DNA from: Amphiscolops sp. MND2022
Taxonomy: Eukaryota
Length of the DNA: 64,000 nt
NCBI GenBank assembly: GCA_964187785.1
Contig: OZ076409.1
Location: 20,028,001 to 20,092,000, forward strand
Reading direction: 5' to 3'
The notes below the pieces were generated by a model. That model ran no database searches. It was given only the letters and a program-made list of their open reading frames with translations, and was not told where the DNA came from. Each line of letters opens with the position of its first letter. Position 1 is the first letter of the stretch. Shown here one piece after another: positions 33,501 to 63,009 of the stretch. Made by a program: the position numbers and the translations under genes.

Positions 33501-35260
33501 TGAAGCCATTAAAATATGTGAAATGCTGATCAGCGATTCTTTCTCTTCAGCCGATTACGCTTGGAAAAATTTGCAGGCGGATTCTCCAATATGTCGATGT
33601 GGCAAAAGTTAAGAGACTGTAGAACATTTCTTTCTGGCATGTGGTCTATACCGAGACGTCAGACCAGAAGACATTGACTCATTGATACTCTTTGACCCTG
33701 AAGACTGCAATTACACTATCGACTACTTCTCGCATTCAGCGAAGTTAAACAGACTCGTATAGCTCTCATCATTAAAACCTAACCTAACTTATCCAACTCT
33801 CAATGCTTTTTTTGTGTTACAGATACGTTGAACTCCCTCTCGCAAATGTGACATTAAAGTATATATAATTTACTAATCTGGTGCCTAAAAAACTTAAGTC
33901 TTGATTGGTCTCACTTGGACTTTTCTCCTGCTTGATTCTGTTTAGAAGGACATCCGCTTGCACAAGAGATTATGGGGACCTGGTCTGAAACTCAAAACGT
34001 GCTAGCGAGTCTTTATAAAAAGTTTCGTGATCAATAATAACATCTTACACAAATGAAAGTCTCACCTTTTTGCAATTCAGCCTGTCATTTTTGACCTTTC
34101 GATTTCCCATTTGTAACATTTTTCATTGGGTAAAGTTTTTCCGTGAAGTTCAATTTTTTCTACAAATACATATGCTGCGAACATAATTTTTTGATGGTTG
34201 ACTTCCGCTTCTATGAGAGAGAGAAAAAGACTTTATTCTCACAGAGAAACCAAAAGATTCAGCTAATACATTTAAACAAAACACAATTCGAACAAGTACA
34301 TACAATATAATAGGTACAAACAACGTCATTAGAGAATGTTTATTTCAACAGAAATTTGTTAACAGCTGTTTTTTCGCTCTTTTGAAATCCACTGATTATT
34401 TTGTGTCGGGAAAGGTAATTGGCTATATTCGCGCACTTCGTGAAGGAAGAGTTAAGATTGTTCGAAAGGGTATTGGTCTTGATAAAAGTTGAATTACCAC
34501 ATTCGTCGCTGGTTGGTTGACTCGTTAACGACAAAAAATTTCCTGTAATCATATTGGTGTTTATTGTTCATCAGTTGAGATAAAAGGATGAACGTTCTTA
34601 GCTCAATAAGGTGACAAATGGGAAGAATGAAGTGATTTATGAGTAGCTGTTGATAAAAGGTGTTTGTACCAAAAATCCATTTGAAGCACTGCTTTTGAAA
34701 ACTTTCCATTATTTTAAAGGAGTTATATCGAGTGACCGAGATGGAATCCCATATAAAAGAACAAATAACACTTGTGAGAAATAAAGGTTGAATGTTTGGC
34801 TAATGGGGTTTGCCTTGGAATTTTTTGCTTCAATGAATAAAAACTTCTTTGGACATTTGTAAGTTTCATCTGCACAGAATCCGTCCATTTAAGGTTAAGA
34901 CGTACAATGATTCCCAGATCCTTTGTATAATCAACGTTTTTTTTAGACAATCCTTGATAGTAACAGAGGTTAACCCCTTCAAATTTAAACAATTAGTTTT
35001 CCCGAGATTGGCAATTATTTCATTAGATAATTTCCAATTGTAGAGACGTGTCACTTCATTGTGAAAATTCAGTGAAGAGAAAAGGAACTTAAAATATTTG
35101 GCAAACAACCTGATCATAGCGTCAAAAAAATACTCGGAAGGTCATTGATAAATATAAGAATCAAAAATGGTCCTAGATCTTACCCTTGAAGGACTCCACT
35201 TGGTACTGACAGATGTTCGGAAAGATTGCTGTTCACATTGACAACTTGGGTTCTCCCATT
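27011..35260. repeat. Four-unit tandem array of tail-to-tail LINE 3' ends
   Basis: Units start at 27011, 29322, 31662 and 33462 (periods ~2311, 2340, 1800, 1797 bp). The junction gggttctcccatt|gtaac recurs. Confidence 0.95.
28335..28408 (-). other. tRNA-like (Pol III A/B box) sequence, SINE head or tRNA pseudogene; identical copy at 30644-30717
   Basis: TAGCACAGCGG (A-box) and GGTTCGAACCC (B-box). Acceptor and anticodon stems pair poorly. Confidence 0.65.
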
Positions 35261-35272
35261 AAGATAAGGTTT

Positions 35273-35819
35273 AACAAGCCGAGAACGGCCAAAGTCGGCG
35301 CCATATCTAAGGCTCAAAATTTAAAAGGGGTACCCTTCGGGCTTTGTGAAACTCCAGCTGGTTGCAAAAAAAATTCAAAAAATGAAGGGGGGCCCTTTGG
35401 GGACATGAAAAAATTTCCCCGAAAAAACATTTTAAATGATATTTTTGAACAGAGTCACAGTGCCGAAAAATGTAAAAAGGGGGACCCTTTGCAATTTTTT
35501 GACATCCATTGTGTTGCAAAATATCGAAACAAATGAAAGGGGACCCTCTGGTGCAATCCAAAAAAACTTCAACAAACAAGTCGCATAGTGCCGAAAAAAA
35601 GTGGGGCTAAGGTGGGATCTTTAGTGTGTTTTCGAGGTTGTGGGCGTCTGTTTTGTTTTTTCTTTTCGTTTTGGACGCGCTTCTGACGTTGGAGTTGTTG
35701 AGGTTTGAAGTTGTTGAGGTTTGAGGTTGTTGAACAAATGAACAAAAAAGTGGACCTTTCGTGTCTAAAAAAACTGTAGTAGTCAGGCACATTTTCTACT
35801 AAAATGCGCTGATTAAAAA
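35273..35819 (-). mobile_element. Non-autonomous Helentron-associated element (HINE/DINE-1-like)
   Basis: Subterminal IR agtcggcgc (35293) / gcgctgatt (35806), partial IR beside one subTIR (35781-35814), terminal hairpin gccg-agaa-cggc (35278-35289), inserted in a T run with no TSD. Confidence 0.7.
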
Positions 35820-39663: not shown

Positions 39664-40494
39664 AAGGCAAGCTTCAGACGAAAAAGTAGCTTATTCCCCG
39701 TCTAGGCTAAATGAGTGAGAACTAAGTGAGTGAGAGAGTGTAGGTAGAGAAGAGTGAATGAAGTGAGTCGATTTATGGCAGAATTCGTAAAAAAACGCAG
39801 TTCAGGCAGAGACTCTCTCTCGCAATCCAGGCAGGCAATGCGGCCAGTGTAGTTGGAACGGTTCGGGACGAAGACCACTTAAGCGAACTTTACTACTTGT
39901 AAATCTGTGTTCAATGACCGTTTTGTTTAATCAAGAAATTTATGTTCTTTGCTTCATTATCGTTACCTTTTCACGATGCTTCATTATCGTTACCTTTTCA
40001 CGAGCCTCATTGAGTTTCTGTATTGAAATGTCCTCGATCCATTGAACTCTCAGGTTGCATGATCTCGTTTCTCAATTCTTTGTTTCCTATCTTGGTTGGA
40101 TTTTTTTTGTCTGTCGCCCGGGCTGGGGGCACATGATGAATGAAGCGTTTTTTAAAACGCTGATTGATGACGATCCAATTCTGAACTCTTTTCAAATGTT
40201 GCTCAACTGTCTGCCTACATCAAAAATCTTCAAGACTCATTTAGAGCAACTTTGAGTTGGTTTCTATAACGATTAAAATATGGACTATTTTTGAAGCTTC
40301 GAATTTATAACGACTTCTCTATGACGAATTGTTTTGAAAATTTTTGAAGGACCGCATATCGCTGTAAATTTATATTAGGTGTTCACTTGTGATTGCGTCA
40401 TCTGTAGAATCCTAAACTGATGAAAGTCACATCGCCACACTGCGTGCCATCTGTTTTCTCTTCCTGTTTTTCTAGAAGTGGTGCTGATATTTCC

Positions 40495-41795
40495 ATGGAT
40501 TTTGAAAACCAAGGTTGTGGGGGTTCCGTAACTGCATCACCTGATACTTATGCTGAGAAAACGAGCATCAATCATGACCAACTTGAACTGCAGATGTCAG
40601 TTGATTCTCTTCACGTTGATGTTTCTGCGAAGAAGCAAGTTGAACAAATAACAAATCTTTTACCCAAAAATATCTCATCCAACGTTAATCACAATCGAAT
40701 GAGCTCTCGAGTATCCTACCTTAGCAGAAGATCCAATCGTTTGAAGCATAAAATGAGGAAACTGCAGATGTGTCAAATAGGACTCCAAGTAGCTCCAAAC
40801 CCCTGTGATGAAAACTCAAGTCGATCAAAATCAAATTTTATGATCATGAAGAAAAAATTGAAGTGTATCCCCGAAGATTCTGATGATACTGATTCTGACT
40901 CTTCATCTTGTAATGATAACGATCACGATGTATCAGTCAAATCAGTTAACCCCAATCACAAGCCAAAATGGAATGAATTGGAGAAGTTGGAAGCATCAAA
41001 AAACGAAATATTAGAGGATTTAGCTTCGCAGAATGCTCAAACTTATAACAAATGGCAATGGCTTCAATTCCAAATTCAAGGTCTGGAATTCAAAATACTT
41101 CAAACTAACGAAACGCTGAGAAAAATTAGATCTCAGGAATTGAAGGCAAAATTCGATACTATTCCTTTCGCGTTATCTGCTGATGGTTCAACGGAAGAAA
41201 CCATAAGTGCTGCAAGAATCCGAGGGCTGGAATCACACCCCAAGAAGAAACTAGTTTCAACTTTGAATGTCATTACTCAGTCCAAAAACGAACTACCCTT
41301 TTCCGGTATCCCTTGTTCGTGTCCGCCAAACTTGTGCTGTATTATATGCGGAGGACCGGGTGTGCTGCATGTTCAAAACCCATCTCCCCTTTCAGACTTC
41401 TGCAGAAGGAGAATAGAAATAGTACACCCTACTTATCACAAAGTTATATGTGCTGGCAAAATGCCTCTTTCAGTCCAATATGGGCGCCTGATAAAAGGAA
41501 GGAAATGGAACTCACGTGCTTCATTGGCTTCCTCCAAGAATGACTCGGCTGCTGCGAAGATTGACGCTGGTTCCAGTGACAGTTTGCTTCAAACCAAGAA
41601 AGCAAGACAGACTCAATTGCAAAGGTTATTGGAAGTCAAAAAGAAAACGCGATCCAAGAAACCTAAAAAGAACAAAGGTACTGACGAGAAGTCTAACAAG
41701 GCTACTTCTAAAGATGGAAACAAGCCTCTCACTAGTGTCGAAAGCGCGGCAGGAGTTGAAAACGACGGAAACAATTCGGATTCAAAGAAAACCAG
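40495..41795 (+). CDS. KANSL1: KAT8 regulatory NSL complex subunit 1 homologue, coding exon 1
   Basis: DSDDTDSDSS; KWQWLQFQIQGLEFKI (cf. RWNWLQAHVSDLEYRI); WIN-like SAARIR; CSCPP..CIICG. Polypyrimidine/AG acceptor at 40475 precedes the ATG. Donor AG|GT at 41796. Confidence 0.88.
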
Positions 41796-42295
41796 GTATA
41801 CTGTCAGGATATGGGCTGTCCTTGTGATGAATTCCATAAATCTTCCATTTTTCGTGGCACACTGAAATTCAGGCTTAGTAGAAGTGTTCCAATTTTGTAC
41901 CAAGACATTTAATGAGCTTCACTTCAAGCTCATCAGATTTTTAGCACTATTTTGAATTTATTTTAAAGATTTTCTGAGTCACATAGGACGATGGTACCAA
42001 CGTCATACAATGTATATTAGTTGTTGGTACGAACTTGAGATTTAGAACATTTTCTGAAGCAGTGACGTTTTTTGCAGGTGAAATTATGCATAGCTGGTGC
42101 TGGACTCGTTATTATTGACTTTCTCGTGAACTTTTAAAATTACCTGAAATCTTAACAATTTTTAAATCATGTAAAATGAAATGAAGCCCAAAAATGTCTT
42201 CAAAAACTATTATTTCTGTCCCCACTGATGGTTTTGATAAAGTGGTTACTTTTTCTTAGTTGGTGTGGAAACAAACTACTGAATCTGTTTTTCAG

Positions 42296-43082
42296 TCGAT
42301 CGTCCAGTCCGGGTCTGTCGAAGTCCTTGTTCAAGGATCCTCCGTATATACCTGACCTGAGTGAATCAAGTGGCGAATCTTCAGATGACGAGCAAGGTTG
42401 CAAGACTAATCTAACCACAGTAATCTCGAAGCCCAAAGCTAACAACCGAAGCAATATGAAAAACTTTATCGTTGGAACTACGTCCAAAGAGTCTACTGAA
42501 CCGCAAATACCTAGAACTACTCAGAAAACTAGCGTAGTTGACCCAACTTCGAACGAAGTGGCGTCCGAGTCAAAACCCAGTGGAAATGAGCAGCCGACTA
42601 ACTCGTCCTCGTTGAAAAAAGTTTCATCTGAAACCGAAATCAGGGAAGACATAGTGATTCCATTGTCAAACTCGCTACCTCTATTTGAACCCGTTATCTA
42701 CAAAACCATCGAGACTCCGCAATGGCGCACTAAGTGGATAGACCCCTTACCTATGAAGAACGTTGGTATACCCAGACAAGAGACATTGGAGGAAATGAGT
42801 GTGGATAAATATGCAGCTATGCACTATCGCTTTGAACACGAAGAGAAAGTTAAAAGCGCCGGACTTCACAGACAGACAAACCCGGGGTCTATGATCAGCA
42901 ACCTCGTTTCCAAACCACCGGAGACCCGTTCTTTGGCAAGTTCCGGGTCGTCGCTAGGCGCTGAGGAGGACATTGGCAGTGGTCCTTACGAAAAAAGAGA
43001 CTTTCCACTGACTCAGCGGCAACTACTAGATTTCAATAAAACTGTTACAACCAGGAATCATGATTTCTTTGATGTTCTTTGA
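42296..43082 (+). CDS. KANSL1: KANSL1 homologue, coding exon 2 with PEHE domain
   Basis: Acceptor ttttcag at 42295 matches the phase-2 donor. DIVIPLS...YKTIETPQWR...EEMS...MH..FEHEE (PEHE) and PYEKRDFPL. Joined CDS is 695 aa. Confidence 0.88.
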
Positions 43083-46400: not shown

Positions 46401-47366
46401 GATTCAGTTTTGAAACAGTTCGAGCATAAACCTTTCAGAGCTAACGAAAAACATTTAACCTTGTCGTTATTTAAGTTTTTTTGGAAAAAAACTTCCATAT
46501 GCCATAAAGTACTCATAAATTTAAAAAACATTTTTTGTAAAAACTCAAAACCCGAAATGAAAGAAATCCAAAGATACGTTTTACTAAAATAAAAGTTTTC
46601 AAAAACAGTTCGTGTCAAAACCCCAAGAGAGTATCTTTGGCTACGTCTAGCTTTGCATGCAAAGAACAAAATAAATACTGCGCGAATACGAGCCCCACGT
46701 ACGCCTGCTCTGCCTCAATTTCACAAACCCTAACCATTAGGCCACCAGAATGTTTTCAGTAGTTTAGGAACTTCTGAGAAGGTATTTTGCCAAAAATCGA
46801 CGAAAAGAATCTCGCTAAAAAATATCTTTTCAAACAATTTTTCCTTCTGACTTTCAGTAAAAATTTCAGATAAAGGTTTTTGATGTCAACTACTTGGTCT
46901 TGTTACCTCTAAGTAAGTGTATGCTGTCAGTGGCTATATCGTAAAATATTCACCTTTCAGTTTCAAGTTAGGTTTTCCATCTTCATCTGGGAAAAACACC
47001 GTTTAAAGTTCAAATTAGATCAATATTCCACTGCGTTTTTCCATCCAGTCAATCATTTTTGACATCACTCCAATACAAAGAAGTTCTCGGTAGCTGCCCA
47101 AGAAAGAATAAGATTGAACTAATACTGTTTTTTCTTGCACTTTTCTTCATAACCTTCTTGTTTGGTTCCTTTTCTAACGTTTTAGAAGGTCTTTCATGTT
47201 GGCTGGTTGGTCTTTTTGCTTTAGCCTCTGGATGCAAAATTATTACATCGTTTCAAGACTTTTACGTATCCTAGTTCCTTTGACCAACGATTTTTCCAGT
47301 ACCATCCAAGTTTTTCGTTTTCGGTTAAAATGAGTTTTTTCCAGTTGGTGAGATCCAAATGACAGC

Positions 47367-50300
47367 TGTAAGATTTTTAGTTTTCCAGTAGCTTTAACTA
47401 TTTGTTGAGAATAGCTCCACTACAACTCAATTAAACCCGTAGGTACCATGCACGAGACAAGGACTGGCTGAGTATCTACATAAATTTTTATTAACTCCGA
47501 AGAAGAGACGAATCAACTTAATCGAAGGCGGTGGGGGTAAGTGTGACAAGGAAATCACGATCTTTACAACTTTGCTATTTTTCCCTCTTTCAGGGGTTTG
47601 TCTCGCTACTCTTGGACTGTTTGAAATTATCTTTTCGCTGATGAAAAGAAGCAGGTTGAACTTTAATTACTATACATCAAATAAATAAGTCGAGTAATAG
47701 ACACAAATACAATTTCACATCCACGAATAATAGAATGAATAATATGATAACATCGATAATAGCGGAGAATATTACTGAGTATATTAGGAGGCATATTAGG
47801 AGGCATATTAGGAGGCATATAACACAAGAGAACAGTATACAAGAATTTCAGCAAGGTTAAGTTTTTGTATCCGTAAGGATGGGGGTGATATCGAAGATAT
47901 CGGAAGAATCAACTCGCCGCAAAATCTCTATCGGTCTTGGAGTGAAAAAAACAACAATCCGTGTATTATCAGCCCACTTAGGCTCAACCGTGTATTATCA
48001 GCCCACTTAGGCTTAAACCGTGTATTATCAGCCCACTTAGGCTCAACCGTGTATTCTCAGCCCACTTAGGCTCAACCGTGTATTATCAGCCCACTTAGGC
48101 TCTTTTACATGTAATACGATAGACCAGCAGTCCACCCTACTCCCGGGTCGAAATCCGTACTAGCGAAAAGCGGGGTAGCAACAATTCAGGCAACTTCAGG
48201 TTGTTAGGCTGAAGGCACGGGCTAACCGGCCAGACGAAGTAAATCTGCAATTTCGATAGTCCGGCGTCTGATGCGGGATGCTATCGGACGCAAAGCAGCA
48301 AACCGTTCTCTAGATTTCAACTCACTTTGTGTGTCGCTAAAATGGCACACACTTCGGCCTCAGTTACTTTTTCGGCAGTTTAGTCATATCATTATTCATA
48401 GTTTATCATCTTTCCTTTTTCGGGTTCTGACTAAGTGTTGAGCAATAGAGTTTTTTCCTACTTCGGTACTGAAAGTTCATTAGAAGTACATTTTCTCAGC
48501 ACGAGTCGGTCCTAGTTCCACCTCCTTGTCAATCATGACTGATGGTTTTACTTCGTTTTCAATAGAATTTAAGGGGTGGTGCTACTGACTCAGTGTTTCC
48601 CACTTTTGTAAACACGACTTGAACTTCGGCTTACTGATTGACATTTGCACCTTTTGCCAGGTCTCTTTTTCTCACGCGGTTCCTGACAACTCTCTCCAGC
48701 TAAATCTGGCTGAAGGAAATAATTTTCTACAATTTACAATGACCTAAAAGGCGATTTTAATTCATATCTAAAAGAATCGATTTTTGTGTTACACTTTCTA
48801 AGGGCAAAAACTAGGTATTCCGATCACGGGGGGCGAAAGTTAAGTACACTATTTGAAAGTACAATCCAAGGGCTACAAAAGCTTGCATAATGGTTTTCTT
48901 TCTATTTCAACTCCTTCATGGTGAAAAACGCCTTTAAAGTTTGGTAGTCAAAAATCACCCGTCGGTTTTCACGCAAATCTCAACTTTGGAGTGCTAGTAC
49001 TCAGTCAATTTGAAAGATACAGGCTGGGGGCATATATACATCGTTAGCCCAAGCCATTAGGAGTATTTTGCACTTTAGATGAGGCCTCTAGCTGGTCTCA
49101 ACAAAATTTGATAGTACTTTTTCTGAAAGTAGTCATTTTCCCTATTTTTATGTCTGGACTTTCAGTTTTGGAGGTCAATATCTCGAAACCAAGGTATTTT
49201 TCGGAAAAACGCTTCTGCTAAACGCTGTGCGCCTGGGTCTTGTGCGTCTACCCTGAAAGTTTCAGTTCGATATCGCTCAAAACGTGCGGGGGGGGGGAGT
49301 TCGCATTTTGGTAGGTCGACATCCCTATCGGCGGAAAGAAATCACAACTTTAAATTCTTGGGGGTTCTTCGCTAGCGCGCCGCAGCACTCTATTTATTAT
49401 TCTATTCACTCCTCCACTTCAATTCTCAAGTACGCTGTGAAAGGGGTGGCTATTGTGCGCTTACTCGTTGAGTACTAAGCGATAACATGTGAAAAACGGC
49501 TTTTTAGGCCAATTTAGGGCTGTTTTTAACGTTTGCTGGCTCAGTTCTCAAAAACTACTGAAAATTATTTATTTTCCAATTAACACAAGTTAGGGCATTC
49601 ATTTATCTTTAATTTAGGCCATATCCGAACAATTTCTGACAACTGTAGCGATCACACAAAATTTTTAAAGGAAACTCAATTTTGGAAAATCGTCAAAATT
49701 TTATATTCACTTATTTTCAAAGCTTCCCCCGATATGTTCCCGGGGTTGCACGACGCTCATATTCTCAACTTAAGCTCTCCTTTGGACGGGCTGTCGAATG
49801 CTGAAAACCGTTTGTCGATATCTTTTTCCATCTTTGAGAAATCTCGTTTTGATTTTTAATTTGCATTAAGAGAGGGGATAATTCCAAAGTGTGCGGCGGC
49901 CGTTTTCTTATTAGCTATGTGTACAGCCACTCACAGCGCGTTCTTAATTTCATTACTTTCGCTTTCTGACACGCTTAGCTGAGTTGCATTCTATGCTGTT
50001 CACGCACACAGCGGAGTTTTCACTCTCGCTTACCCTCAAACACATGTATTAACATAGTAATTTGGCTAAATCTCTATTCTCAGTCAATGATGACTTTAGG
50101 TTCAATTTTTGTGGGAATACGTTGGTTTAAAGTTCTTAAATGTTTACTCAACACGTAGTCAGGTCAGAAAGGAACATTTTGGTGGTTTAATTTTTCTTAT
50201 ATTCGCAATAGGTATTGAGAAATTCAATGTTAAAGTTTCGTTCCGAATAGAATTTTCTTACATAGGTTTAGGTGGTGGCGGCCGTCTCACTGCATTAATA

Positions 50301-50514
50301 CGTTGCGCGGTCGCTTCATAGCAGCTAAGAATGGTTATTTTAGTTGTCCGCGAGACTAAAGACAATATTATTGACATTAAACAATAGTGTGAGGTACTTG
50401 AAGTACTTACTGTAATCTTTACTTTTATACGATATCACCTCGTAAAATCTACCTTGCTGATGGACTAAAATTTAATAAACACCAAATCATGAGCGAAAAG
50501 TCAAAAATCCTACA
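47367..50514 (-). repeat. 3' LTR (3148 bp)
   Basis: Near-identical to 58350-61493; tgtaag...cctaca. Confidence 0.97.
47959..48102. repeat. 5 x 29-bp tandem repeat inside the LTR (also 58942-59085)
   Basis: Unit ccgtgtattatcagcccacttaggctcaa. Confidence 0.95.
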
Positions 50515-50526
50515 TTCCCCCCCCAC
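50515..50526 (-). promoter_or_regulatory. Polypurine tract
   Basis: GTGGGGGGGGAA on the minus strand, abutting the 3' LTR. Confidence 0.9.
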
Positions 50527-52069: not shown

Positions 52070-54388
52070 TTATTTTGGCTTTACCACGTACTCGTCTATG
52101 CCAAAGCGCACTGGCGGTCGACGATTCCGTGTGGTTTCTATCATCAGCGAATCTGAACGTTCGCTTTCGTTGTCCTCCTCATCTGGAGGAGGCGGAGTAT
52201 TTCTACTCTCGTGTATTTCTTCATAAACGGGACATGATGATTCCTCTGATGGTTCGGGGACATCTATATACATGGGACGATTTATCAGAGAAACCTCTTG
52301 GTCGTTTTCGGTGCTTATCACGCGGGGAACGTCGTGGAACGACACGTGCGGCCAATTTCTATTGGCTTGGGTTTCCGCCGAAGTAAGGCGAAACACATGA
52401 TACGGTCTATTTTCGGTCTCTTGGTCGGATGAATCGGATTCATCTGCGACTTCTTCATAACTCGGTAGCGTTTTTGTCGCCACTCGTTCGGATCGTTTCG
52501 GCAAGGATTCGCCAAGATACGGTTTGAGACGATTAAAATGGATATTTTGCCACTTTTCCGGGCAACCTGGCTTGCAAATCTGATAGTTCACTTCACTTGT
52601 CTGACTCAATACTTCATATGGACCGTGCCAAGGGAGATGGAACTTTCGGGATTTCGCTTTGTGTGGCTCGAATAACCACACTCGGTCTCCTATTTTAAAA
52701 CTTTCTCCATGGAACTTTTTCTGATAATAATCCTTCTGACGACGTTGTTCTTTCCCCATAGTCAGTTGCGCATGACTATGTACTTCGAATAGTTTATCAC
52801 TCAACTCAGCTCCTACCTCACCTAATTCTAAACGGGGGTCGCCAGGAGGCTTTGGATAGAACAAATCGATCGGATATTGTGCTTCTCTGCCGTACAACAT
52901 CGAGAACGGGGTCGTACCGAGAGTCTTATGTACGGTGGTATTGTACACAAAATTGACGTGGGGTAAGTAGAGATCCCACTCCTGCGGTTTTTCGGCGCAA
53001 TACTTAGAAATAGTATCGGCAATCACTCTATTGAATCTTTCTCCTTGACCATTTCTTTGGGGATGGTATGGAGAAGTCCTAGTTTTATCGATCATGAAAA
53101 CTTGGCAAATATCTTTCATTACTTCGCTGTTGAAGTTAGTTCCTTGATCCGTATGTAAAGTATCGGTAGCCCCAAATTTCAAGATCCACTCTTCGACTAA
53201 GGTCGTGTCCACCGTCTTAGCCGTCATGTCTTTCAAAGGAACGGCAACCGCATACTTTGTATACAAATCCGATATGACTAAAATGTATCGCGCCTGTGAC
53301 TTTTTCGCTAGCGTTACGGGTCCCAAGATATCTGCTGCAACAATACGAAACGGCGCCTTTTCTTCAATTGTTTGCAAATGAGTTTTTCGACTTTTTCCCG
53401 CCGTTGATCTAGCCGCGCAACGCGTGCATTTTGCAAAATACTTTTCTACACTTGACCTGAGACCAGGCCACCAAAATCTCTGTTTAATCCTTGATAACGT
53501 TTTCTCGGCTGCAAAATGACCTCCGCTAAGAGGGGAGTCATGTAACTGATGTAACACTTCGGCTCTCATAGTCGAAGGAACTACTGCCTGCCATATTTCA
53601 CGTTCACGATTGCTAGGTTTCCATTTTCGATAAAGTACTCGATTTGCCAGCGCTAGCTGGTCCCAATTGCTCCAAAGTTCTAACGCTCCTGGACAACTCC
53701 ATCCTAATGCTACTTCTCGGGGGATGGGGTTGGGCCCTAAATCTTTCAATGTACCATCTATCCGAATTCCACGTCTAACCATATAACGGAATAGTAATCC
53801 CGTACTACGATCGCTTCTCTGACCATACGCTAGGTCACTATCTGATCTAGTCCATGAGATATGCCCCCCCACTTGCTCTGATACTAACATTTCTTCAGGG
53901 GTAACGACGGAACAGGCGGAATCTACACTTGATGAACGCGGGGTACCTCGTCTTGCCGAAGTCGAAGGGTACAATTGCTCTTGGTCTCTCGGTGTATACA
54001 CGGAGATCGTAAAAGACGAATCTTGAAACACAACCTCTAGACAAATAGCTACATTTACCCATTCTAGTTCGTCGTCGACGCAACCTATTCTAGGTATTGC
54101 AAGTTTGGAAATTCCGTGGGAACTAGCATGTTCTTTCACTCTCAATAGACTTTCTTTTAATACATCGTATTTGGCAACTTCTCCTTTACAATGCTTGGTG
54201 ATCAATATGTACACATATTGTCCTTTTTCAACATCTTGGTACACTAGAAAACCTCCAACACGATTTACCGACTCTGCGAGAGGCGGTAAATGGGAATACT
54301 TTTTTACGAACGATTTCATGGGAGCAGTGGCTACTCTCATGTCGGCAGATACACACAAAACTAAGGAATCGGGGGATTCGAAAAATCT
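52070..54388 (-). CDS. pol: Pol C-terminal part: TARG1/OARD1-like macrodomain plus integrase
   Basis: Macro: DSLVLCVSAD...YVYILITK...LAIPRIGC..D.LEW...ISVY. Integrase: H-H-C-C, ADILGP, TDQGTNF, ERFNR, WHGPY. Confidence 0.93.
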   Translation of the reverse strand, partial: RFFESPDSLVLCVSADMRVATAPMKSFVKKYSHLPPLAESVNRVGGFLVYQDVEKGQYVYILITKHCKGEVAKYDVLKESLLRVKEHASSHGISKLAIPRIGCVDDELEWVNVAICLEVVFQDSSFTISVYTPRDQEQLYPSTSARRGTPRSSSVDSACSVVTPEEMLVSEQVGGHISWTRSDSDLAYGQRSDRSTGLLFRYMVRRGIRIDGTLKDLGPNPIPREVALGWSCPGALELWSNWDQLALANRVLYRKWKPSNREREIWQAVVPSTMRAEVLHQLHDSPLSGGHFAAEKTLSRIKQRFWWPGLRSSVEKYFAKCTRCAARSTAGKSRKTHLQTIEEKAPFRIVAADILGPVTLAKKSQARYILVISDLYTKYAVAVPLKDMTAKTVDTTLVEEWILKFGATDTLHTDQGTNFNSEVMKDICQVFMIDKTRTSPYHPQRNGQGERFNRVIADTISKYCAEKPQEWDLYLPHVNFVYNTTVHKTLGTTPFSMLYGREAQYPIDLFYPKPPGDPRLELGEVGAELSDKLFEVHSHAQLTMGKEQRRQKDYYQKKFHGESFKIGDRVWLFEPHKAKSRKFHLPWHGPYEVLSQTSEVNYQICKPGCPEKWQNIHFNRLKPYLGESLPKRSERVATKTLPSYEEVADESDSSDQETENRPYHVFRLTSAETQANRNWPHVSFHDVPRVISTENDQEVSLINRPMYIDVPEPSEESSCPVYEEIHESRNTPPPPDEEDNESERSDSLMIETTRNRRPPVRFGIDEYVVKPK

Positions 54389-56874
54389 CTAGGTGGGTGA
54401 GAAATTTGCATTTTCAAATGCCGAGCTACATCCGCTGAGTTTTCCAATTTCTCACGAGCTTTGGTTCGGGCGGCTCGAAGATCGCGTTCGGCTTCAAACA
54501 AAGCACTATCAAATTCGGTGAATTCGGGAATCGGTCCTCTTAACGCATCTTCTTCGCCGGGGAGCCATTGGGGTACGTCATTCGGTCGTCGACTAAGGCC
54601 GTCCGCATTACAATATTTATCACCTGGACGATGTACTATTTGATAGTCATACTCCTGAAGTTTCTGAACCATTCGAAAAGTCATTCCATCCGCATTTTGC
54701 CTAAACAACCATTGAAGACTAGCATGATCTGTGCGAATAATACATTTGGATCCGTAAATGTACGGTCTGAACCACTGGACGGCTTGAACTACACCTAGCG
54801 CTTCTCTTTTGGTTGTTGCATAATTTACCTCCGTTTTAGTTAGAACTCGCGACTCAGAGGCAATTGGATACTCTATCCCATCGATCACTTGCGACAAAAC
54901 TGCGCCGAGCGCCGTATCACTAGCATCGGTATCAATAATGAACGGAAGTTAAAAATTTGAAAATGCCAAAATTGGAGCTTCTAACAATCTTTTCTTCAGC
55001 GTTCGGAACGCTTTGTCATGTTCTTCGGTCCATGTGAACTTTAATCCTTTGCTCGTCAACAAATAAAGTGGCCTAGCCATTTCCGCGAAGTTTTGGACAA
55101 ACTTCCGATAATAGTTGCAGAAGGCAACAAATGAGCGAACTCCGGTGACGTCGGTCGGAGGCTCCCATTCGCGTATTGCCGCTAACTTTTTCGGATCTGG
55201 TTGGATCCCTTCCTTGTTAATCACATGACCTAGATAGTGGACCTCGGTGCGGAATAAGTTGCATTTCTTCGGTTTAAGACGTAAACCGGCTTTGCGCAAA
55301 ACTATAAACACCTTTTCTAAATGCTCCAAACGTTCTTCTGGAGTTTTGCTAAACGTTAGCACATCATCTAGGAATATGAGCACATGTTTATATAGATCTT
55401 CTTTAAAAATGTCGTTCATGTTCCGTTGGAAAGTTGGCGGGGCGTTCGTTAAGCCAAAAGGCATTTTCAAACACTCAAATAACCCTCCATCCGGAGTACA
55501 AAATGCCGTTTTGTGCCGGTCTTCGGTCGCGACTGGAATCTGCCAATTGCCACTTGCTAAATCGAGAGACGAGAAGACTCCCGCCCCTTGCAGTGCATCA
55601 ATCGTTTGACCGATCCGAGGCAACGGATACGCGTCCTTTACGGTAAGGTCGTTCAACTTTCGATAATCTATACACATTCGGTTTGAGCCGTCTTTCTTAG
55701 GCACCATTACTATGGGGCTGCTGAAAGGACTTTTACTCGGTACGATCACTCCTTTCTCAAGCATCTCGCGAATTTCTTCACGAACGGCTTCTAATTTATG
55801 CGGAGCAATTTTGTAGGGCGAAATTTTGAACGGTATCGCATCGCCTATGTCTATGCGGTGTTCTATTCCTACAGCGGTTCCTAACGGGTCTGAAGGCAGT
55901 GAAAACACATCTCTGTAATCACGAATCAAATCTCGCAATTTTTCCTTTTTTTCGGCATTCTCGAGTCCAGGGGTGGCTAAATTTAAAATTTCGTCAACTT
56001 CCTGTTCGAGTTTTTCGTTTATTTCGGAGGCCGCTGATACTGTGTCAGGACCGGGTACCATTTCGCAAACAAATGCGTCATCTTCCGGCGGGGGAACATG
56101 ACCGCTTAGGACTTGCATGGGTACTTTGATGATGAAACCATCATCTTTGGGGATCGTTAGTTTTTGTTCGACTAAGTCAGTCGAGCATTGATTTTCCATC
56201 ATGAATTTTAAGCCAATCATGATCTCAGGGTAGAGATCTTCCACAACCACGAATTCATCGGAAGCGACGCACGTTCCGATTTTAACTTCTGCTTTTACGA
56301 TACCTTTGGTAGGCATCTCGTTGGCTATTGGGCCTGTTAAACGACTGGGATTGGGGGCTATTGGGTTACCAATAGTCTTAGCCAATTCCAAACTCATCAA
56401 ACTTCTACTCGCACCAGTGTCTATCATGGCCCAACAGCGTAGGCTTTCGACTTCATAGGGGATTAAAAGCGTGGCCCCTGGAATGTATTGACTATGGGTC
56501 AGTTTTCTCGATTTTACCTCATCAGACCGGGCCTGAGTTGGAAATTCTCGTTCTTTCTTGGAAAAAATTTTCACAGAGCCAGGCTCTGCTTGTTTATCCT
56601 CAAAAAGATTTCGTATGGGGGGACTATTTACAACAGGGGTATGGGATTCTTTTGGGAAACAACCTCCTGGGCCAAACTCATCACTCATTTGTTTCCAAGT
56701 TTCGGGGTCGATCCGCCTACTGCGATTGCGCTGTCGCAAACGGCTATCGTTACTCCTAGATCTAGAACGAACACGCTGACTTGTTTGTGGAAAATTTGTA
56801 GCAGCTGGGGAAGGGATGGAATCCCAAGCGCGAGTAGAGCCTGCTACTGCATACTCGGCTGTCGGTAGTTTAAA
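54389..56874 (-). CDS. pol: Pol N-terminal part: protease, RT, RNase H (-1 frame to gag; in-frame TAA at 54949; frameshift near 54390)
   Basis: IDTGA; RMCIDYRKLN, MPFGL, FLDD; DTDAS, REAL, TDH, NADGLSR. Confidence 0.95.
56798..56874 (-). promoter_or_regulatory. -1 programmed ribosomal frameshift signal (U UUA AAC plus predicted pseudoknot)
   Basis: Heptamer at 56868-56874 in the correct gag phase. The -1 frame is open into pol. Complementary stems lie downstream. Confidence 0.8.
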
Positions 56875-58244
56875 GAATTAGACTGCGGAAGACTTGGACA
56901 TTGCTTAGCGTAGTGACCTATCGCCTTACAATTAAAACATTCCGCTTCTTCGGGGGGAGGGTGCGAAACATTTAGCTGACCCGACGATCCTACCCTATTT
57001 AGAGGCGCGCGATAGTTAGGATTGAGAGGGGCTTGAAAACGGGGAGCTTGCCAACTCTGAGGCTGCCCACCAACCGGCTTTTGCGAACTTCCTAACTCTC
57101 CTACGATCGCAGATGACATGTCTTTCATACCCTGCATTAGGATTTCGTTTTGTCTGGTCATCATTTCGACTTGTTTTGAGGAACTTTGTTCTAAGTTTTT
57201 CGTTATTTGATCGGTTTGCTTGGATATCTGCTGGCAGATGGAATTTTCGAATCGATCAAAGCGACTTGCCACATTGGTTAAAGATGTTTGAAGGACGGCA
57301 AATTTTTCTTCGATTTGGTTGTTGCTCGAATAGCCAGCTCTCACTAGATCGGGATCCTCGTATTCGTCGTACGAATAACGCAATTTATCCAGTTTTCGCT
57401 CTCTTTTTGATTCGTGAGTCTTGTGGATTATTTCGAGTTCCTGTGCTCTTTGCAAAGTTTCCCCGAAATCACGGTCACGCTCGTCTTCATACAAACTAAG
57501 TTGTATTCGCGAATCAAAAAGCCCTTCAATAAATTGATCTCTCATATCGCGTTCTCTTTCCCGGAGCGGTTTTTCAGGAAAGGCTATATCAGCGAGTTGA
57601 CGTACTCTTCTCGAGTAGTCTCTTAGGTCTTCATTTTCCCATTGTTTAACTGCTTTAAATTCCGACCGTGTAGCTCGCTGACTGCGATATTGCTGCATTT
57701 TGGGTTTCAAAATTTCAAGTAGTTCATCAAACCGTGGGGGATAAGAACCTGGTTCTTTTTCAACATATCTTTGGGGGACAGTTTCAAATTCTTCAATAGC
57801 CCACGATGTTAAACAAGTAGGCATTGCTGCAATTTTTTGACTATCATTCCACCCATTTGCTTTAGCAACTGCTTTGAAGTGTTTTACCCAGCTTTCCCAG
57901 CGGTTGTAATCTTTGCCGGGGAACTTTTCTGGTTTTATTGGCGACTTTTCATATAAAGGTTTTTGTCTTCTTTTGGATTCATTTTCCAGAACCATGGAGT
58001 CGTCAGAATCTAGGTCTGCTTCCATTTTGAATCTTTTAATTTCTTTTTCCATTTCTTTCAATCGCCGATAAGCATCTCTTTTACACTCCTTTTCCGTGGC
58101 GGCCAATCCTACGAAGGAAAGTTTAGTGGACTTACTGAGGAGTGGTTTACTACCACCTGTGACGGGAGTATGGGTGCCGTTGGGATCTTCTTGGGTGACG
58201 GGGGAAATCTGCTGATCGTTGTTGTCGTCTCCAGACATCGTCAA
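56844..58244 (-). CDS. gag: Gag with CCHC zinc knuckle (first ATG at ~58238)
   Basis: PEKFPG..WESWVKHF...ANGW capsid-like region; CFNCKAIGHYAKQC. Confidence 0.95.
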   Translation of the reverse strand: MTMSGDDNNDQQISPVTQEDPNGTHTPVTGGSKPLLSKSTKLSFVGLAATEKECKRDAYRRLKEMEKEIKRFKMEADLDSDDSMVLENESKRRQKPLYEKSPIKPEKFPGKDYNRWESWVKHFKAVAKANGWNDSQKIAAMPTCLTSWAIEEFETVPQRYVEKEPGSYPPRFDELLEILKPKMQQYRSQRATRSEFKAVKQWENEDLRDYSRRVRQLADIAFPEKPLRERERDMRDQFIEGLFDSRIQLSLYEDERDRDFGETLQRAQELEIIHKTHESKRERKLDKLRYSYDEYEDPDLVRAGYSSNNQIEEKFAVLQTSLTNVASRFDRFENSICQQISKQTDQITKNLEQSSSKQVEMMTRQNEILMQGMKDMSSAIVGELGSSQKPVGGQPQSWQAPRFQAPLNPNYRAPLNRVGSSGQLNVSHPPPEEAECFNCKAIGHYAKQCPSLPQSNSLNYRQPSMQ

Positions 58245-58329
58245 GAAGGGTTCGGCAACTCAAAGGGGTGAAGGGAAGATAAGGGAGAGAAGTAAGCAAA
58301 GAAAGAGGAAATAACAAAGACGCAAAGAA

Positions 58330-58348
58330 AGCCCACCCAGGAGCGCCA
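58330..58348 (-). promoter_or_regulatory. Primer-binding site, probably tRNA-Asn
   Basis: Plus strand agcccacccaggagcgcca resembles the animal tRNA-Asn(GTT) 3' end plus CCA, 1 nt from the LTR. Confidence 0.8.
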
Positions 58349-58349
58349 A

Positions 58350-61300
58350 TGTAAGATTTTTAGTTTTCCAGTAGCTTTAACTATTTGTTGAGAATAGCTC
58401 CACTACAACTCAATTAAACCCGTAGGTACCATGCACGAGACAAGGACTGGCTGAGTATCTACATAAATTTTTATTAACTCCGAAGAAGAGACGAATCAAC
58501 TCAATTGAAGGCGGTGGGGGTAAGTGTGACAAGGAAATCACGATCTTTACAATTTTGCTATTTTTCCCTCTTTCAGGGGTTTGTCTCGCTACTCTTGGAC
58601 TGTTTGAAATTATCTTTTCGCTGATGAAAAGAAGCAGGTTGAACTTTAATTACTATACATCAAACAAATAAGTCGAGTAATAGACACAAATACAATTTCA
58701 CATCCACGAATAATAGAATGAGTAATATGATAACATCGATAATAGCGGAGAATATTACTGAGTATATTAGGAGGCATATTAGGAGGCATATTAGGAGGCA
58801 TATAACACAAGAGAACAGTATACAAGAATTTCAGCAAGGTTAAGTTTTTGTATCCGTAAGGATGGGGGTGATATCGAAGATATCGGAAGAATCAACTCGC
58901 AGCAAAATCTCTATCGGTCTTGGAGTGAAAAAAACAACAATCCGTGTATTATCAGCCCACTTAGGCTCAACCGTGTATTATCAGCCCACTTAGGCTGAAA
59001 CCGTGTATTATCAGCCCACTTAGGCTCAACCGTGTATTCTCAGCCCACTTAGGCTCAACCGTGTATTATCAGCCCACTTAGGCTCTTTTACATGTAATAC
59101 GATAGACCAGCAGTCCACCCTACTCCCGGGTCGAAATCCGTACTAGCGAAAAGCGGGGTAGCAACAATTCAGGCAACTTCAGGTTGTTAGGCTGAAGGCA
59201 CGGGCTAACCGGCCAGACGAAGTAAATCTGCAATTTCGATAGTCCGGCGTCTGATGCGGGAAGCTATCGGACGCAAAGCAGCAAACCGTTCTCTAGATTT
59301 CAACTCACTTTGTGTGTCGCTAAAATGGCACACACTTCGGCCTGAGTTACTTTTTCGGCAGTTTAGTCATATCATTCTTCATAGTTTATCATCTTTCCTT
59401 TTTCGGGTTCTGACTAAGTGTTGAGCAATAGAGTTTTTTCCTACTTCGGTACTGAAAGTTCATTAGAAGTACATTTTCTCAGCACGAGTCGGTCCTAGTT
59501 CCACCTCCTTGTCAATCATGACTGATGGTTTTACTTCGTTTTCAATAGAATTTAAGGGGTGGTGCTACTGACTCGGTGTTTCCCACTTTTGTAAGCACGA
59601 CTTGAACTTCGGCTTACTGATTGACATTTGCACCTTTTGCCAGGTCTTTTTTTCTCACGCGGTTCCTGACAACTCTCTCCAGCTAAATCTGGCTGAAGGA
59701 AATAATTTTCTACAATTTACAATGACCTAAAAGGCGATTTTAATTCATATCTAAAGAAATCGATTTTTGTGTTACAACTTCTAAGGGCAAAAACTAGGTA
59801 TTCCGATCACGGGGGGCAAAAATTAAAAACACTATTTAAAAGGACAATCCAAGGGCTACAAAAGCTTGCTCCATGGTTTTCTTTCTATTTCAACTCCTTC
59901 ATGGTGAAAAACGCCTTTAAAGTTTGGTAGTCAAAAATCGCCCGTCGGTTTTCACGCAAATCTCAACTTTGGAGTGCTAGTACTCAGTCAATTTGAAAGA
60001 TACAGGCTGGGGGCATATACACATCGTTAGCCCAAGCCATTAGGAGTATTTTGCACTTTAGATGAGGTCTCTAGCTTGTCTCAACAAAATTTGATAGTAC
60101 TTTTTCTGAAAGTAGTCATTTTCCCGATTTTTATGTCTGGACTTTCAATTTTGGAGGTCAATATCTCGAAACCAAGGCATTTTTCGGAAAAACGCTTCTG
60201 CTAAACGCTGTGCGCCTGGGTCTTGTGCGTCTACCCTGAAAGTTTCAGTTCGATATCGCCCAAAACGTGCGGGGGGGAGTTCGCATTTTGGTAGGTCGAC
60301 ATCCCTATCGGCGGAAAGAAATCACAACTTTAAATTCTTGGGGGTTCTTCGCTAGCGCGCCGCAGCACTCTATTTATTATTCTACTCACTCCTCCACTTC
60401 AATTCTCAAGTACGCTGTGAAGGGGGCGGCTATTGTGCGCTTACTCGTTGAGTACTAAGCGATAACATGTGAAAAACAGCTTTTTAGGCCATTTTAGGGC
60501 TGTTTTTAACGTTTGCTGGCTCAGTTCTCAAAAACTACTGAATATTATTTATTTTCCAATTAACACAAGTTAGGGCATTCATTTATCTTTAATTTAGGCC
60601 ATATCCGAACAATTTCTGACAACTGTAGCGATCACACAAAATTTTTAAAGGAAACTCAATTTTGGAAAATCGTCAAAATTTTATATGCACTTATTTTCAA
60701 AGCTTCCCCCGATATGTTCCCGGGGTCGCACGACGCTCATATTCTCAACTTAAGCTCTCCTTTAGACGGGCTGTCGAATGCTGAAAACCGTTTGTCGATA
60801 TCTTTTTCCATCTTCGAGAAATCGCGTTTTGATTTTTAATTTGCATTAAGAGAGGGGATAATTCCAAAGTGTGCGGCGGCCGTTTCTTATTAGCTATGTG
60901 TACAGCCACTCACAGCGCGTTCTTAATTTCATTACTTTCGCTTTCTGACACGCTTAGCTGAGTTGCATTCTATGCTGTTCACGCACACAGCGGAGTTTTC
61001 ACTCTCGCTTACCCTCAAACACATGTATTAACATAGTAATTTGGCTAAATCTCTATTCTCAGTCAATGATGACTTTAGGTTCAATTTTTGTGGGAATACG
61101 TTGGTTTAAAGTTCCTAAATGTTTACTCAACACGTAGTCAGGTCAGAAAGGAACATTTTGGTGGTTTAATTTTTCTTATATTCGCAATAGGTATTGAGAA
61201 ATTCAATGTTAAAGTTTCGTTCCGAATAGAATTTTCTTACATAGGTTTAGGTGGTGGCGGCCGTCTCACTGCATTAATAAGTTGCGCGGTCGCTTCATAG

Positions 61301-61493
61301 CAGCTAAGAATGGTTATTTTAGTTGTCCGCGAGACTAAAGACAATATTATTGACATTAAACAATAGTGTGAGGTACTTGAAGTACTTACTGTAATCTTTA
61401 CTTTTATACGATATCACCTCGTAAAATCTACCTTGCTGATGGACTAAAATTTAATAAACACCAAATCATGAGCGAAAAGTCAAAAATCCTACA
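58350..61493 (-). repeat. 5' LTR (3144 bp)
   Basis: Near-identical to 47367-50514. Confidence 0.97.
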
Positions 61494-63009
61494 ACAGCTG
61501 AAAGAAGTCCCTCAGAAACAAATAGTGTAACATGCCACAGTATCGCGATCACTTTTTCCACAGATTCAGCTTGGTTGTCGTTCAGTTTGTGTTGTGTAAG
61601 TATTTCCAATGACGTCAAGCCACAGAACAAGTTTCGATTTGCCTTTCAGATTTCTACATTTCAAAAGTTCAACCCTGGTGTGATGAAAAGAGTTGAGTCT
61701 CGATGCTTTAGCAGTAGAAACAAGCCGGAAGGGCCGAAGTCGCTGCCCCACTGGAGGTTCAAAAAACCACGTTTTTTTAAGAAATGCAAGGGTACGCAAT
61801 TTTTAAACTTATAACAAGCTTACAGTGCCGGAACATGCTAAATAAGATACTCATAATCTTCAAAATCCGCGTTTCCCCCAACTGGAAACTTCGAAAACCC
61901 CAATTCTTGAAAATGAACATCTTTCCAGAAGTGTTGGAAGAAAATCTTATAGTGCCAAAAAACGAGCTCAATGCTCGCAAAACGTTTTTTTTTCAAGCCA
62001 AATACATTTTGCAAAATGAAGGAGTGCCCAAATGAATTCGACCAAATAATTTTCTTCTATGAAAAGTGTCATGTCTTGTCCACGGTCTTTGAGAACACTC
62101 TCATCAGTTCAACAGGACCATAAAAAAACCCAAAAACGTCACCCTTAAATCTCAGGAAGCGGTTTTCTCAAACATAACTTTTCGTAGATGGGCTCTTTGT
62201 AAACACATTCCTGAAAACTCAATTTAAGGAGAGGGACAAGTAGAGAGAAAGATAGAGAGATGTTGAGAAATTTGAAATGTTTTGAAAATTTGTGGAATAT
62301 TTTAATATTATAAAGAAGATTATCAACTTGGCAGTTTGTATGATTATATTAGAAATGATCATCTTTTTCTGAATATTTTCCGCCCGCATTAAATGGGGGA
62401 GGAAAATCATAATCGGTGTTGCGTGTCCCTTCGACCTCACCTATAGTTACTTGACTATTTTAGTTACCAGAAACTAAAATAGACAAGTAAGTAAAACAGC
62501 TTAGAGGGGGGAATGATATCTAAAGTCAAAAATGAAAATGAGATCTATAGGAAATGAGATCTAAACTATCAGAACGGGATTAATATCTAAAGGGAATAAG
62601 ATCTAAAATCACTAGATTGAGAACTTATAATTTATATCCTATTCCCCCTCCCAAAATAGCAAGAAGCGGAAAATATCCTCCCAAAAGAAGGCGGAAAATA
62701 TCCCAGTGCTTAGCGGGCGTCTTGTTGATGTTTGTAAACAAATTTTTGAAATCTCTCAAGACGTGTCTGGCTCCGGATCTTTTTCTCTCAGCACCCAAAA
62801 GCGACTTGCGTTAGCAGAGGTGATATCAACAAAGAAAGAGACGCTCTTCTCTCCACACTCGAGTGTGCAACTTCACATTTTTATAGTAGCGGAAGATTAC
62901 AAATTGTTAGGCCTAAGAAATATTTCAAAATTTCAAAACTGGACTTGATATCAAACGAAATGATCTTTACTTTAAATTTTGTATAACAAACAGTTTGTAA
63001 AACTGCTCA

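What the first reader, a model, noticed from the sequence alone, without database searches (positions are those of the whole stretch)
54060..54365. Macrodomain keeps the catalytic Lys/Asp pair but has remodelled ADP-ribose-binding loops
By my manual alignment, the TARG1 K84 (ITK) and D125 equivalents are retained. However, H32 becomes L, the MGAGIA loop becomes VATAPM, and G123 becomes V (GCVDD versus GCGLD); a bulky residue at G123 blocks ADP-ribose binding in TARG1. That many changes is more than decay of a copy whose LTRs differ by only ~1.5% could explain. The family may therefore encode a pseudo-enzyme or an altered-specificity reader.
Basis: partly seen in the sequence, partly recalled or inferred. 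Interest (0 to 1): 0.7.

Follow-up and report, generated by a model that had tools for sequence, protein, structure and literature searches.

The report
Pocket-blocked macrodomain in Gypsy retrotransposon Pol
A lineage of Gypsy-type jumping genes carries, inside its replication polyprotein, a copy of the ADP-ribose-removing domain TARG1 whose ADP-ribose pocket looks blocked in every subfamily examined while the fold stays conserved, which suggests an enzyme repurposed for a non-catalytic job.

Summary
Observation confirmed. A Ty3/Gypsy element (LTRs 98.4% identical) encodes a TARG1-like macrodomain between RNase H and integrase (PDB E 5e-19; fold TM 0.86). This copy is broken (stop 54949-54951, frameshift near 54385), but the pocket changes are not decay. 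They recur in six subfamilies with 52-77% domain identity, four with full-length Pol ORFs: G123 is V/I in 72 of 72 copies, I44 is P in 68 of 70, G43 is G in 0 of 70, and the adenine-binding D20 varies. Canonical-type domains keep G123 in 142 of 145. The domain has no indels and is as conserved as the protease. The 'retained catalytic pair' is weaker than claimed: D125 holds (71 of 72), but K84 is Arg in all five full-length subfamily D ORFs. H32 binds through its main chain, so H32L says little. Best reading: an ADP-ribose-binding-dead pseudo-macrodomain kept as a non-catalytic module of Pol (0.5). Altered specificity 0.2; vestigial spacer 0.15. No binding or activity was measured. Unrelated Gypsy lineages carry canonical TARG1-type domains (7 of 7 fit the published pattern). 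New variant of a known kind.

The parts
58350..61493 (-). 5' LTR (3144 bp, TG...CA)
   Evidence: blastn self-match, 98.38% over 3148 columns; ends read
47367..50514 (-). 3' LTR (3148 bp, TG...CA)
61494..61498 (-). 5-bp target-site duplication, upstream copy
   Evidence: same 5-mer flanks both LTR ends
47362..47366 (-). 5-bp target-site duplication, downstream copy
58331..58348 (-). candidate primer-binding site (starts TGG one base after the 5' LTR); priming tRNA not identified
   Evidence: sequence; interpretation from general knowledge of LTR elements
50515..50524 (-). polypurine tract
   Evidence: G-run abutting the 3' LTR
56844..58259 (-). gag ORF with C-terminal CCHC knuckle
   Evidence: zf-CCHC E 1.6e-5
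54952..56877 (-). pol, first part: protease, reverse transcriptase, start of RNase H
   Evidence: Asp_protease_2, RVT_1, RT_RNaseH_2
54949..54951 (-). in-frame stop codon inside RNase H (copy-specific break)
   Evidence: tblastn against natural full-length copy P0026
54385..54948 (-). rest of RNase H and the linker leading to the macrodomain; frameshift at about 54385
   Evidence: RT_RNaseH E 4e-30
53990..54385 (-). TARG1-like macrodomain with remodelled ADP-ribose pocket (first strand truncated in this copy)
54317..54334 (-). loop 1 / helix 1 start: VATAPM in place of TARG1 MGAGIA (G43->A, I44->P)
54194..54196 (-). Lys equivalent to TARG1 K84
54071..54085 (-). loop 3: GCVDD in place of GCGLD (G123->V, L124->D, D125 kept)
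52070..53581 (-). integrase (HHCC zinc finger, core, SH3/p58 C-terminal domain) and C-terminal tail

Best explanation
A Ty3/Gypsy lineage captured a TARG1-type macrodomain into pol, between the RNase H linker and the region upstream of integrase (shown: position; absent from close sister lineages). On the stem of six subfamilies (A-F) the ADP-ribose pocket was rebuilt: both phosphate-loop glycines were lost (G43 -> A/T/E/S/L, G123 -> V/I), I44 became Pro, an acidic residue entered the phosphate loop (L124 -> D), and the adenine-binding D20 became free to vary (shown as sequence). It most likely no longer binds or hydrolyses ADP-ribose (inferred from TARG1 and Mac1 mutants). The fold has since been under purifying selection (shown at protein level only). 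I infer that it now serves as a non-catalytic protein-interaction or scaffold module, most likely carried at the C-terminus of RT-RNase H and separated from integrase by a variable Ser/Thr-rich linker and a possible protease site. K84/R and D125 are probably kept as a structural ion pair. Partner and role are not identified.
For: Lineage-wide state: G123 V66/I6 of 72; I44 P 68 of 70; G43 G 0 of 70; L124 D70/E2 of 72; D20 D42/N14/I6/E4/H1/L1 of 68; canonical-type set G123 142 of 145, G43 140 of 144, I44 I 125 of 143, D20 D 116 of 137. Of 35 positions at least 80% conserved in canonical-type domains, 10 are replaced in all six subfamily representatives, 7 of them in pocket loops (L21, H32, M40, G43, I44, A45, G123); 17 are identical in all six. 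G43E, I44E and G123E each abolish ADP-ribose binding and catalysis in TARG1 (PMC5928194, passages); subfamily E naturally has Glu at G43 (7 of 7). G130V abolishes SARS-CoV-2 Mac1 activity (PMC12992833, passages; equivalence to G123 is my recalled alignment). K84 is Arg in 5 of 5 full-length subfamily D ORFs with intact PR, RT, RH and IN motifs. Constraint: macro identity 52-77% among A-F with no gap columns, against protease 50-58% and the following linker 18-50%; invariant columns over A, D, E, F: macro 0.47, protease 0.36, linkers 0.14-0.31, RT 0.73. AlphaFold model of natural copy P0057: pLDDT mostly 84-97 over the domain, TM 0.86 to TARG1.
Against: No binding, activity or docking was measured; coordinates of the model could not be inspected, and its alignment was dominated by canonical TARG1-like rows. 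The distal-ribose subsite is largely kept (C33 67 of 68, D37 D/E 68 of 68, T83 63 of 72, K84 64 of 72, D125 71 of 72), which fits retained chemistry. Point mutants in TARG1 or Mac1 need not predict a co-evolved pocket: G130D kept activity in cells (PMC12992833) and a neighbouring second-site change partly compensated a Gly-to-Val mutant in MHV (10.1101/2021.03.30.437796, passages). No dN/dS: DNA of relatives was not found. Sister lineages without the domain have full-length Pol ORFs, so it is dispensable in principle. Copies within a subfamily are not independent; the effective sample is six related subfamilies.
Confidence: 0.5

Rival explanations
1. Altered-specificity reader or enzyme: the adenosine and diphosphate sites are gone but the distal-ribose subsite (C33, S35, D37, T83, K84, D125, plus the new D124) binds or processes another ligand, such as a ribose or abasic nucleic-acid end or a basic peptide, during reverse transcription or integration.
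For: The loss is asymmetric: adenine and phosphate residues are changed while distal-ribose residues are kept (site assignments from PMC6397177). New residues are fixed (V40 69 of 70, P44 68 of 70, D124 70 of 72, P152 66 of 66). Long stem (1.45) then short branches in the domain tree.
Against: K84 is Arg in subfamily D (5 of 5) and T83 is Val in E (8 of 8), S35 is Ala in B (11 of 11); Arg cannot form the lysyl adduct described for TARG1 (mechanism from PMC9967889, passages; chemistry from own knowledge). No ligand candidate has any direct support.
Confidence: 0.2
2. Vestigial folded spacer: the domain lost its function after capture and is conserved only because a misfolded insert would harm Pol.
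For: Seven close relatives lack the insert (P0228, P0230-P0235). Two neighbouring lineages carry differently eroded macrodomains (G: P0226/P0383; P0227), so loss of the pocket recurs. Much of the conservation is in core positions.
Against: All six subfamilies keep the whole domain with no gap columns while flanking linkers diverge and take indels; polar positions are invariant in all six representatives (for example S41, H42, S49, N51, D114 of the domain), though their surface exposure was not checked.
Confidence: 0.15
3. Pocket-independent nucleic-acid binder, like the coronavirus SUD macrodomains or pocket-dead TARG1.
For: TARG1 G123E and G43E still bind RNA (PMC5928194, passages). A G-quadruplex-binding SARS macrodomain is in print (title only, reference list of PMC11696869). 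Pol acts on RNA and DNA.
Against: That binding is ascribed to basic patches, and these domains are less basic: net charge -5 to +3 against a canonical median of +4; D+E 15-21 against a median of 15.
Confidence: 0.08
4. Still a TARG1-like ADP-ribosyl hydrolase that counters host PARP-mediated restriction.
For: K84 and D125 kept in most copies; fold intact; other Gypsy lineages carry canonical versions at the same site.
Against: Fails the GxGxD pattern in 0 of 115 matches; three positions whose single mutation kills TARG1 are all changed.
Confidence: 0.07
5. Copy-specific decay of a canonical domain.
For: This copy has a stop and a frameshift.
Against: The same residues stand in full-length Pol ORFs of the family and in five other subfamilies.
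Confidence: 0

Closest known systems
Human TARG1 / OARD1 / C6orf130 (PDB 4J5Q, 4J5R, 4J5S, 2L8R), ALC1-like macrodomain class
   Same: Best sequence and structure match (E 5.4e-19; Foldseek E 8e-14, TM 0.86, 36% identity); C33, D37, T83, K84, P118, G121, D125, W129 mostly kept.
   Different: GxG phosphate loop broken (G123 V/I), G43 lost, I44 Pro, L124 Asp, D20 variable, K84 Arg in one subfamily; embedded in a retrotransposon Pol; less basic.
Canonical TARG1-type macrodomains in other Gypsy polyproteins (P0127, P0145, P0196 between RNase H and integrase; P0176, P0181 after integrase; P0178, P0195 beside a protease domain)
   Same: Same domain class captured by the same superfamily, three at the same junction.
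   Different: 7 of 7 match TKx(30,35)Px[IL]GxGxD; the four in the RT-RNase H tree lie far from this lineage on long branches, which points to separate captures.
Macro domains in fish epsilon-like endogenous retroviruses (Basta et al. 2009, seen only as cited in PMC4977317)
   Same: A macro domain carried by an LTR retroelement (review passage).
   Different: Retroviruses, not Gypsy; class, position and pocket state unknown to me because the paper was not held.
Non-ADP-ribose-binding viral macrodomains (coronavirus SUD / Mac2-Mac3)
   Same: Works-like precedent: a macro fold kept inside a viral polyprotein for a pocket-independent role (title; the rest recalled).
   Different: Different macrodomain class; those bind G-rich nucleic acid, whereas this domain is neutral to acidic.

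Membership tests
TARG1-type hydrolase | TARG1/ALC1-like macro fold | tested here: met
   (model built from an alignment rich in canonical rows)
TARG1-type hydrolase | Published pattern TKx(30,35)Px[IL]GxGxD (PMC6397177) | tested here: not met
   0 of 115 lineage proteins (70 contain loop 3); 128 of 145 canonical-type domains match
TARG1-type hydrolase | Catalytic K84 | tested here: inconclusive
   K in the window copy and 64 of 72 copies; R in 6 (5 of 5 subfamily D), N in 2
TARG1-type hydrolase | Catalytic D125 | tested here: met
   71 of 72
TARG1-type hydrolase | Adenine site D20, L21, F22, I44 | tested here: not met
   D20 kept in 42 of 68 (only subfamilies A, B and one D copy), L21 0 of 68, I44 0 of 70
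TARG1-type hydrolase | Loop 1 glycine G43 | tested here: not met
   0 of 70 against 140 of 144
TARG1-type hydrolase | ADP-ribose binding and hydrolase activity | not testable with these tools
   no assay or ligand-scored docking available
Ty3/Gypsy LTR retrotransposon | Order PR-RT-RNase H-integrase | tested here: met
Ty3/Gypsy LTR retrotransposon | TG...CA LTRs, short target duplication, polypurine tract | tested here: met
Ty3/Gypsy LTR retrotransposon | RT-RNase H groups with Gypsy elements | tested here: met
   named nearest hits are annotated Gypsy / K02A2.6-like from animals; tree of 50 rows, no non-Gypsy outgroup
env-bearing Gypsy (errantivirus-like) | env ORF between pol and the 3' LTR | tested here: not met
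   the 1556 bases hold no ORF over 125 aa in this copy; other copies not examined

The most novel reading that the evidence does not exclude
The lineage converted a captured ADP-ribose eraser into a new-specificity module: the adenosine and diphosphate sites were plugged while the lysine/aspartate distal-ribose site, now with an extra aspartate, was re-aimed at another ligand (a sugar or abasic end in cDNA or the integration gap, or a basic chromatin peptide), giving Pol a new processing or targeting function. It would be the first macrodomain of this class with a non-ADP-ribose ligand that I could find in 10 literature searches.
Probability: 0.2. Interest if true: 0.8.

Novelty: new variant of a known kind. 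Interest (0 to 1): 0.47.

Why it matters
Retroelements have taken up macrodomains several times, which hints that ADP-ribosylation acts on mobile DNA. This lineage is a natural experiment: high-copy subfamilies (clusters of 624, 512 and 207 member sequences) keep the domain yet carry changes at the three positions biochemists mutate to inactivate TARG1. Set beside canonical Gypsy versions, it offers a small, directly testable series for how a pseudo-enzyme arises and what a TARG1 fold does without its pocket. If it is only a spacer, the interest is modest.

Tried and rejected
No genome is held for the window, so copies in the same assembly could not be counted. No sequencing run was listed; this says nothing on expression. 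Scans for DNA of relatives found none: metagenome contigs with P0001 (140 pattern hits, 0 confirmed) and P0363 (24, 0 confirmed), viral contigs with P0351 (6, 0 confirmed); hence no dN/dS. The ESM Atlas gave no answer. Complex prediction of RNase H region with the macrodomain of P0026 gave no verdict (score 0.00, no controls); not evidence either way. A search around subfamily G found no intermediate with a canonical pocket (2 hits of 5308 candidates). The domain tree could not place G or P0227 (long branches), so one capture versus several in this neighbourhood is open. One search had an off-by-one labelling error and crashed; one search replaces it. Literature: 10 searches (macrodomain+retrotransposon; macro domain+gypsy+integrase, 16; macro domain+endogenous retrovirus+pol, 17; TARG1+G123E, 23; TARG1+retrotransposon, 38; TARG1+K84+D125, 45; macro domain+retrotransposons+ADP-ribose+reverse transcriptase, 46; macro domain+LTR retrotransposon, 55; macrodomain+endogenous retrovirus, 59; macrodomain+G130V/G1439V/G131V, 64) showed no listing describing a Gypsy TARG1-like domain; most listings were judged by title and abstract start only, and subscription journals and repeat databases are not covered. 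Sharifi 2013, Peterson 2011 and Basta 2009 were not held. Passages of 10.1101/2021.11.30.470311 and PMC8195603 had nothing on point. Rejected: copy-specific decay; H32L as evidence of pocket loss; an env gene in this copy.

Full report
Observation. The stretch lies on the minus strand of an LTR retrotransposon. Two 3.15 kb repeats (47367-50514, 58350-61493) are 98.38% identical, 47 mismatches in 3144 aligned bases, K2P 1.5%, with TG...CA ends, a 5-bp target duplication and a polypurine tract. Between them lie gag and pol in the order protease, RT, RNase H, integrase, the Ty3/Gypsy order; no env-sized ORF follows pol. The frame 52070-54388 opens with a domain whose only strong PDB matches are human TARG1/C6orf130 (5 of 7 hits at E up to 1, E about 5e-19). 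Pfam barely sees it (Macro E 0.033). This copy is dead: an in-frame stop at 54949-54951 and a frameshift near 54385 that removes about 8 codons at the start of the domain.

Family or decay. A homologue search returned 12 proteins of 76 candidates; with cluster members, 51 of 70 proteins cover the domain, and G123 is V in 49 of 49, I44 is P in 48 of 48. Four members are full-length 1563-1565 aa Pol ORFs with intact catalytic motifs. The window domain differs from one of them at 4 of 131 residues. A second search with the RNase H-macro region (228 hits of 6131 candidates, best 120 listed) and cluster look-ups gave six subfamilies, A-F, which form one clade on an RT-RNase H tree (100/100, 50 rows). 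Over 113 proteins of A-F, 76 cover part of the domain: G123 V66/I6 of 72, I44 P 68 of 70, G43 never G (A35, T15, E7, S7, L4, D1, P1), M40 V 69 of 70, L124 D70/E2, D125 71 of 72, K84 K64/R6/N2, D20 D42/N14/I6/E4/H1/L1. These copies are not independent; the effective sample is six related subfamilies, of which C has one sequence. The comparison set was 145 canonical-type domains cut from the best 150 of 1023 hits of an exhaustive search; I dropped 24 of 169 rows first (13 hits belonging to the remodelled clade, 5 added family members, 6 partial repeats of P0076). In it G123 is G in 142 of 145, G43 in 140 of 144, I44 is I in 125 of 143, K84 is K in 142 of 145. The published TARG1 pattern TKx(30,35)Px[IL]GxGxD (PMC6397177, passages) matches 128 of 145 of these and 0 of 115 lineage proteins, 70 of which contain loop 3.

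Constraint. Among A-F the domain is 52-77% identical with no gap columns, the protease 50-58% (A, D, E, F only), the linker before it 42-78%, the Ser/Thr-rich linker after it 18-50%, the C-terminal tail 27-60%, RT 73-91%. Invariant columns over four full-length representatives: macro 66 of 141, protease 35 of 96, following linker 4 of 28, RT 119 of 162. So the domain is constrained about as much as the protease. This is protein-level evidence; no DNA of relatives was found, so there is no dN/dS. In a domain tree the A-F clade sits on a long stem (1.45, SH-aLRT 99) with short branches inside, the pattern of a shift followed by renewed constraint, though the time on the stem is unknown. An AlphaFold model of natural copy P0057 gives the TARG1 topology and matches 4J5Q at TM 0.86; the alignment behind it was mostly canonical rows, and I could not inspect the pocket.

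What the changes mean. PMC6397177 (passages) divides the TARG1 site into an adenosine part (D20, L21, F22, I44, L47, P118, Y150, L152), a diphosphate part (the GxG loop) and a distal-ribose part (main-chain amides of H32 and C33; S35, T83, D125; K84). In A-F the adenosine part keeps only P118 (67 of 72) and Y150 (67 of 70); D20 and F22 vary, L21 is F, I44 and L152 are P (L47 is variable in the canonical set too and tells nothing). The diphosphate loop has lost its second glycine and gained an acid. PMC5928194 (passages and Introduction) reports that G43E, I44E and G123E each abolish ADP-ribose binding and catalysis while G43E and G123E still bind RNA. All three positions are changed here, and subfamily E has Glu at 43 (7 of 7). 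For Val, PMC12992833 (passages) reports SARS-CoV-2 Mac1 G130V inactive in vitro and in cells, but G130D active in cells; that G130 equals TARG1 G123 is my recalled alignment. An MHV study (10.1101/2021.03.30.437796, passages) found the Gly-to-Val mutant severely impaired but partly compensated by a neighbouring change, a warning that co-evolved pockets can adapt. That Pro at 44 removes a backbone amide used to hold phosphate is from my own knowledge of macrodomain structures. The distal-ribose part is best kept (C33 67 of 68, D37 D/E 68 of 68, D125 71 of 72), but K84 is Arg in all five full-length subfamily D ORFs, T83 is Val in E and S35 is Ala in B. TARG1 uses K84 as a nucleophile to form a lysyl adduct (PMC9967889, passages); Arg would keep an ion pair with D125 but not that chemistry (inference). 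H32 contributes a main-chain amide, so its loss is weak evidence.

Mechanism. Shown: position, fold, lineage-wide pocket changes, protein-level constraint, absence from seven close relatives. Inferred: loss of ADP-ribose binding and hydrolysis (about 0.8 overall), and a present role as a non-catalytic interaction or scaffold module (0.5). The tight, conserved join to the RNase H side and the variable linker on the integrase side suggest that it travels with RT-RNase H; that is a guess from anatomy. Rivals: altered-specificity reader or enzyme (0.2), vestigial folded spacer (0.15), pocket-independent nucleic-acid binder (0.08; the domains are less basic than canonical ones), normal TARG1-like eraser (0.07).

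Comparison. It descends from the TARG1 class but fails the TARG1 pattern, so I do not file it as a TARG1 hydrolase. Capture of such domains by retroelements is not unique: among 55 longer hits scanned, seven retroelement proteins carry canonical domains, all matching the pattern, and the four in the tree are far from this lineage. Two neighbouring lineages hold differently eroded versions that the domain tree cannot place. Fish endogenous retroviruses with macro domains are cited in PMC4977317 (passage; original not held). Ten literature searches showed no description of a pocket-remodelled Gypsy macrodomain (listed under Tried and rejected); no supplements were read, and repeat databases and subscription journals are not covered.

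Verdict. A real, lineage-wide, constrained pseudo-macrodomain in Gypsy Pol; a new variant of a known kind. Interest 0.47; 0.8 if a new ligand is found (probability 0.2).

Noticed in passing
window 47367-50514 and 58350-61493: The LTRs are unusually long (3.15 kb) and hold a 29-30 bp tandem array (about 47956-48104) and a 12 bp tandem repeat (about 47725-47832).
   Followed up: no
P0226 / P0383 (subfamily G): A sister lineage with full-length 1743 aa Pol ORFs has a differently eroded macrodomain at the same junction (22-27% identity to A-F; loop 1 replaced, loop 3 with an insertion).
   Followed up: partly
P0227, residues 57-192 and 1455-1611: A close relative carries an eroded TARG1-like domain in front of the protease and an SGNH/GDSL hydrolase after integrase: this Gypsy neighbourhood repeatedly gains accessory domains.
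   Followed up: partly
P0127, P0145, P0196, P0176, P0181, P0178, P0195: Canonical TARG1-type domains in unrelated retroelement polyproteins at three or four different positions.
   Followed up: partly
P0095, P0166, P0156, P0157, P0150, P0091: TARG1-type domains fused to ATP-dependent DNA ligase domains and/or a ligase III-type BRCT domain.
   Followed up: no
subfamilies A-F, just after the Ser/Thr-rich linker behind the macrodomain: A short conserved Cys-containing motif precedes the pre-integrase region and may be a protease site (reading as a cleavage site is from recall).
   Followed up: no
window 27000-35300: Four tandem copies of a 1.8-2.3 kb unit, 70-95% identical, with LINE-like RT fragments.
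   Followed up: no
window 21591-24428 (+): Long LINE ORF with endonuclease and RT, next to the 200-base N gap at 21388-21587.
   Followed up: no
window 11550-13900 (+): A second, fragmented LTR retrotransposon pol, about 30% identical to this element's RT-RNase H.
   Followed up: no
window 40408-43082 (+): Two long ORFs, the second with a weak PEHE match (E 0.0067, below cut-off), possibly a host MSL1/KANSL1-like gene.
   Followed up: no
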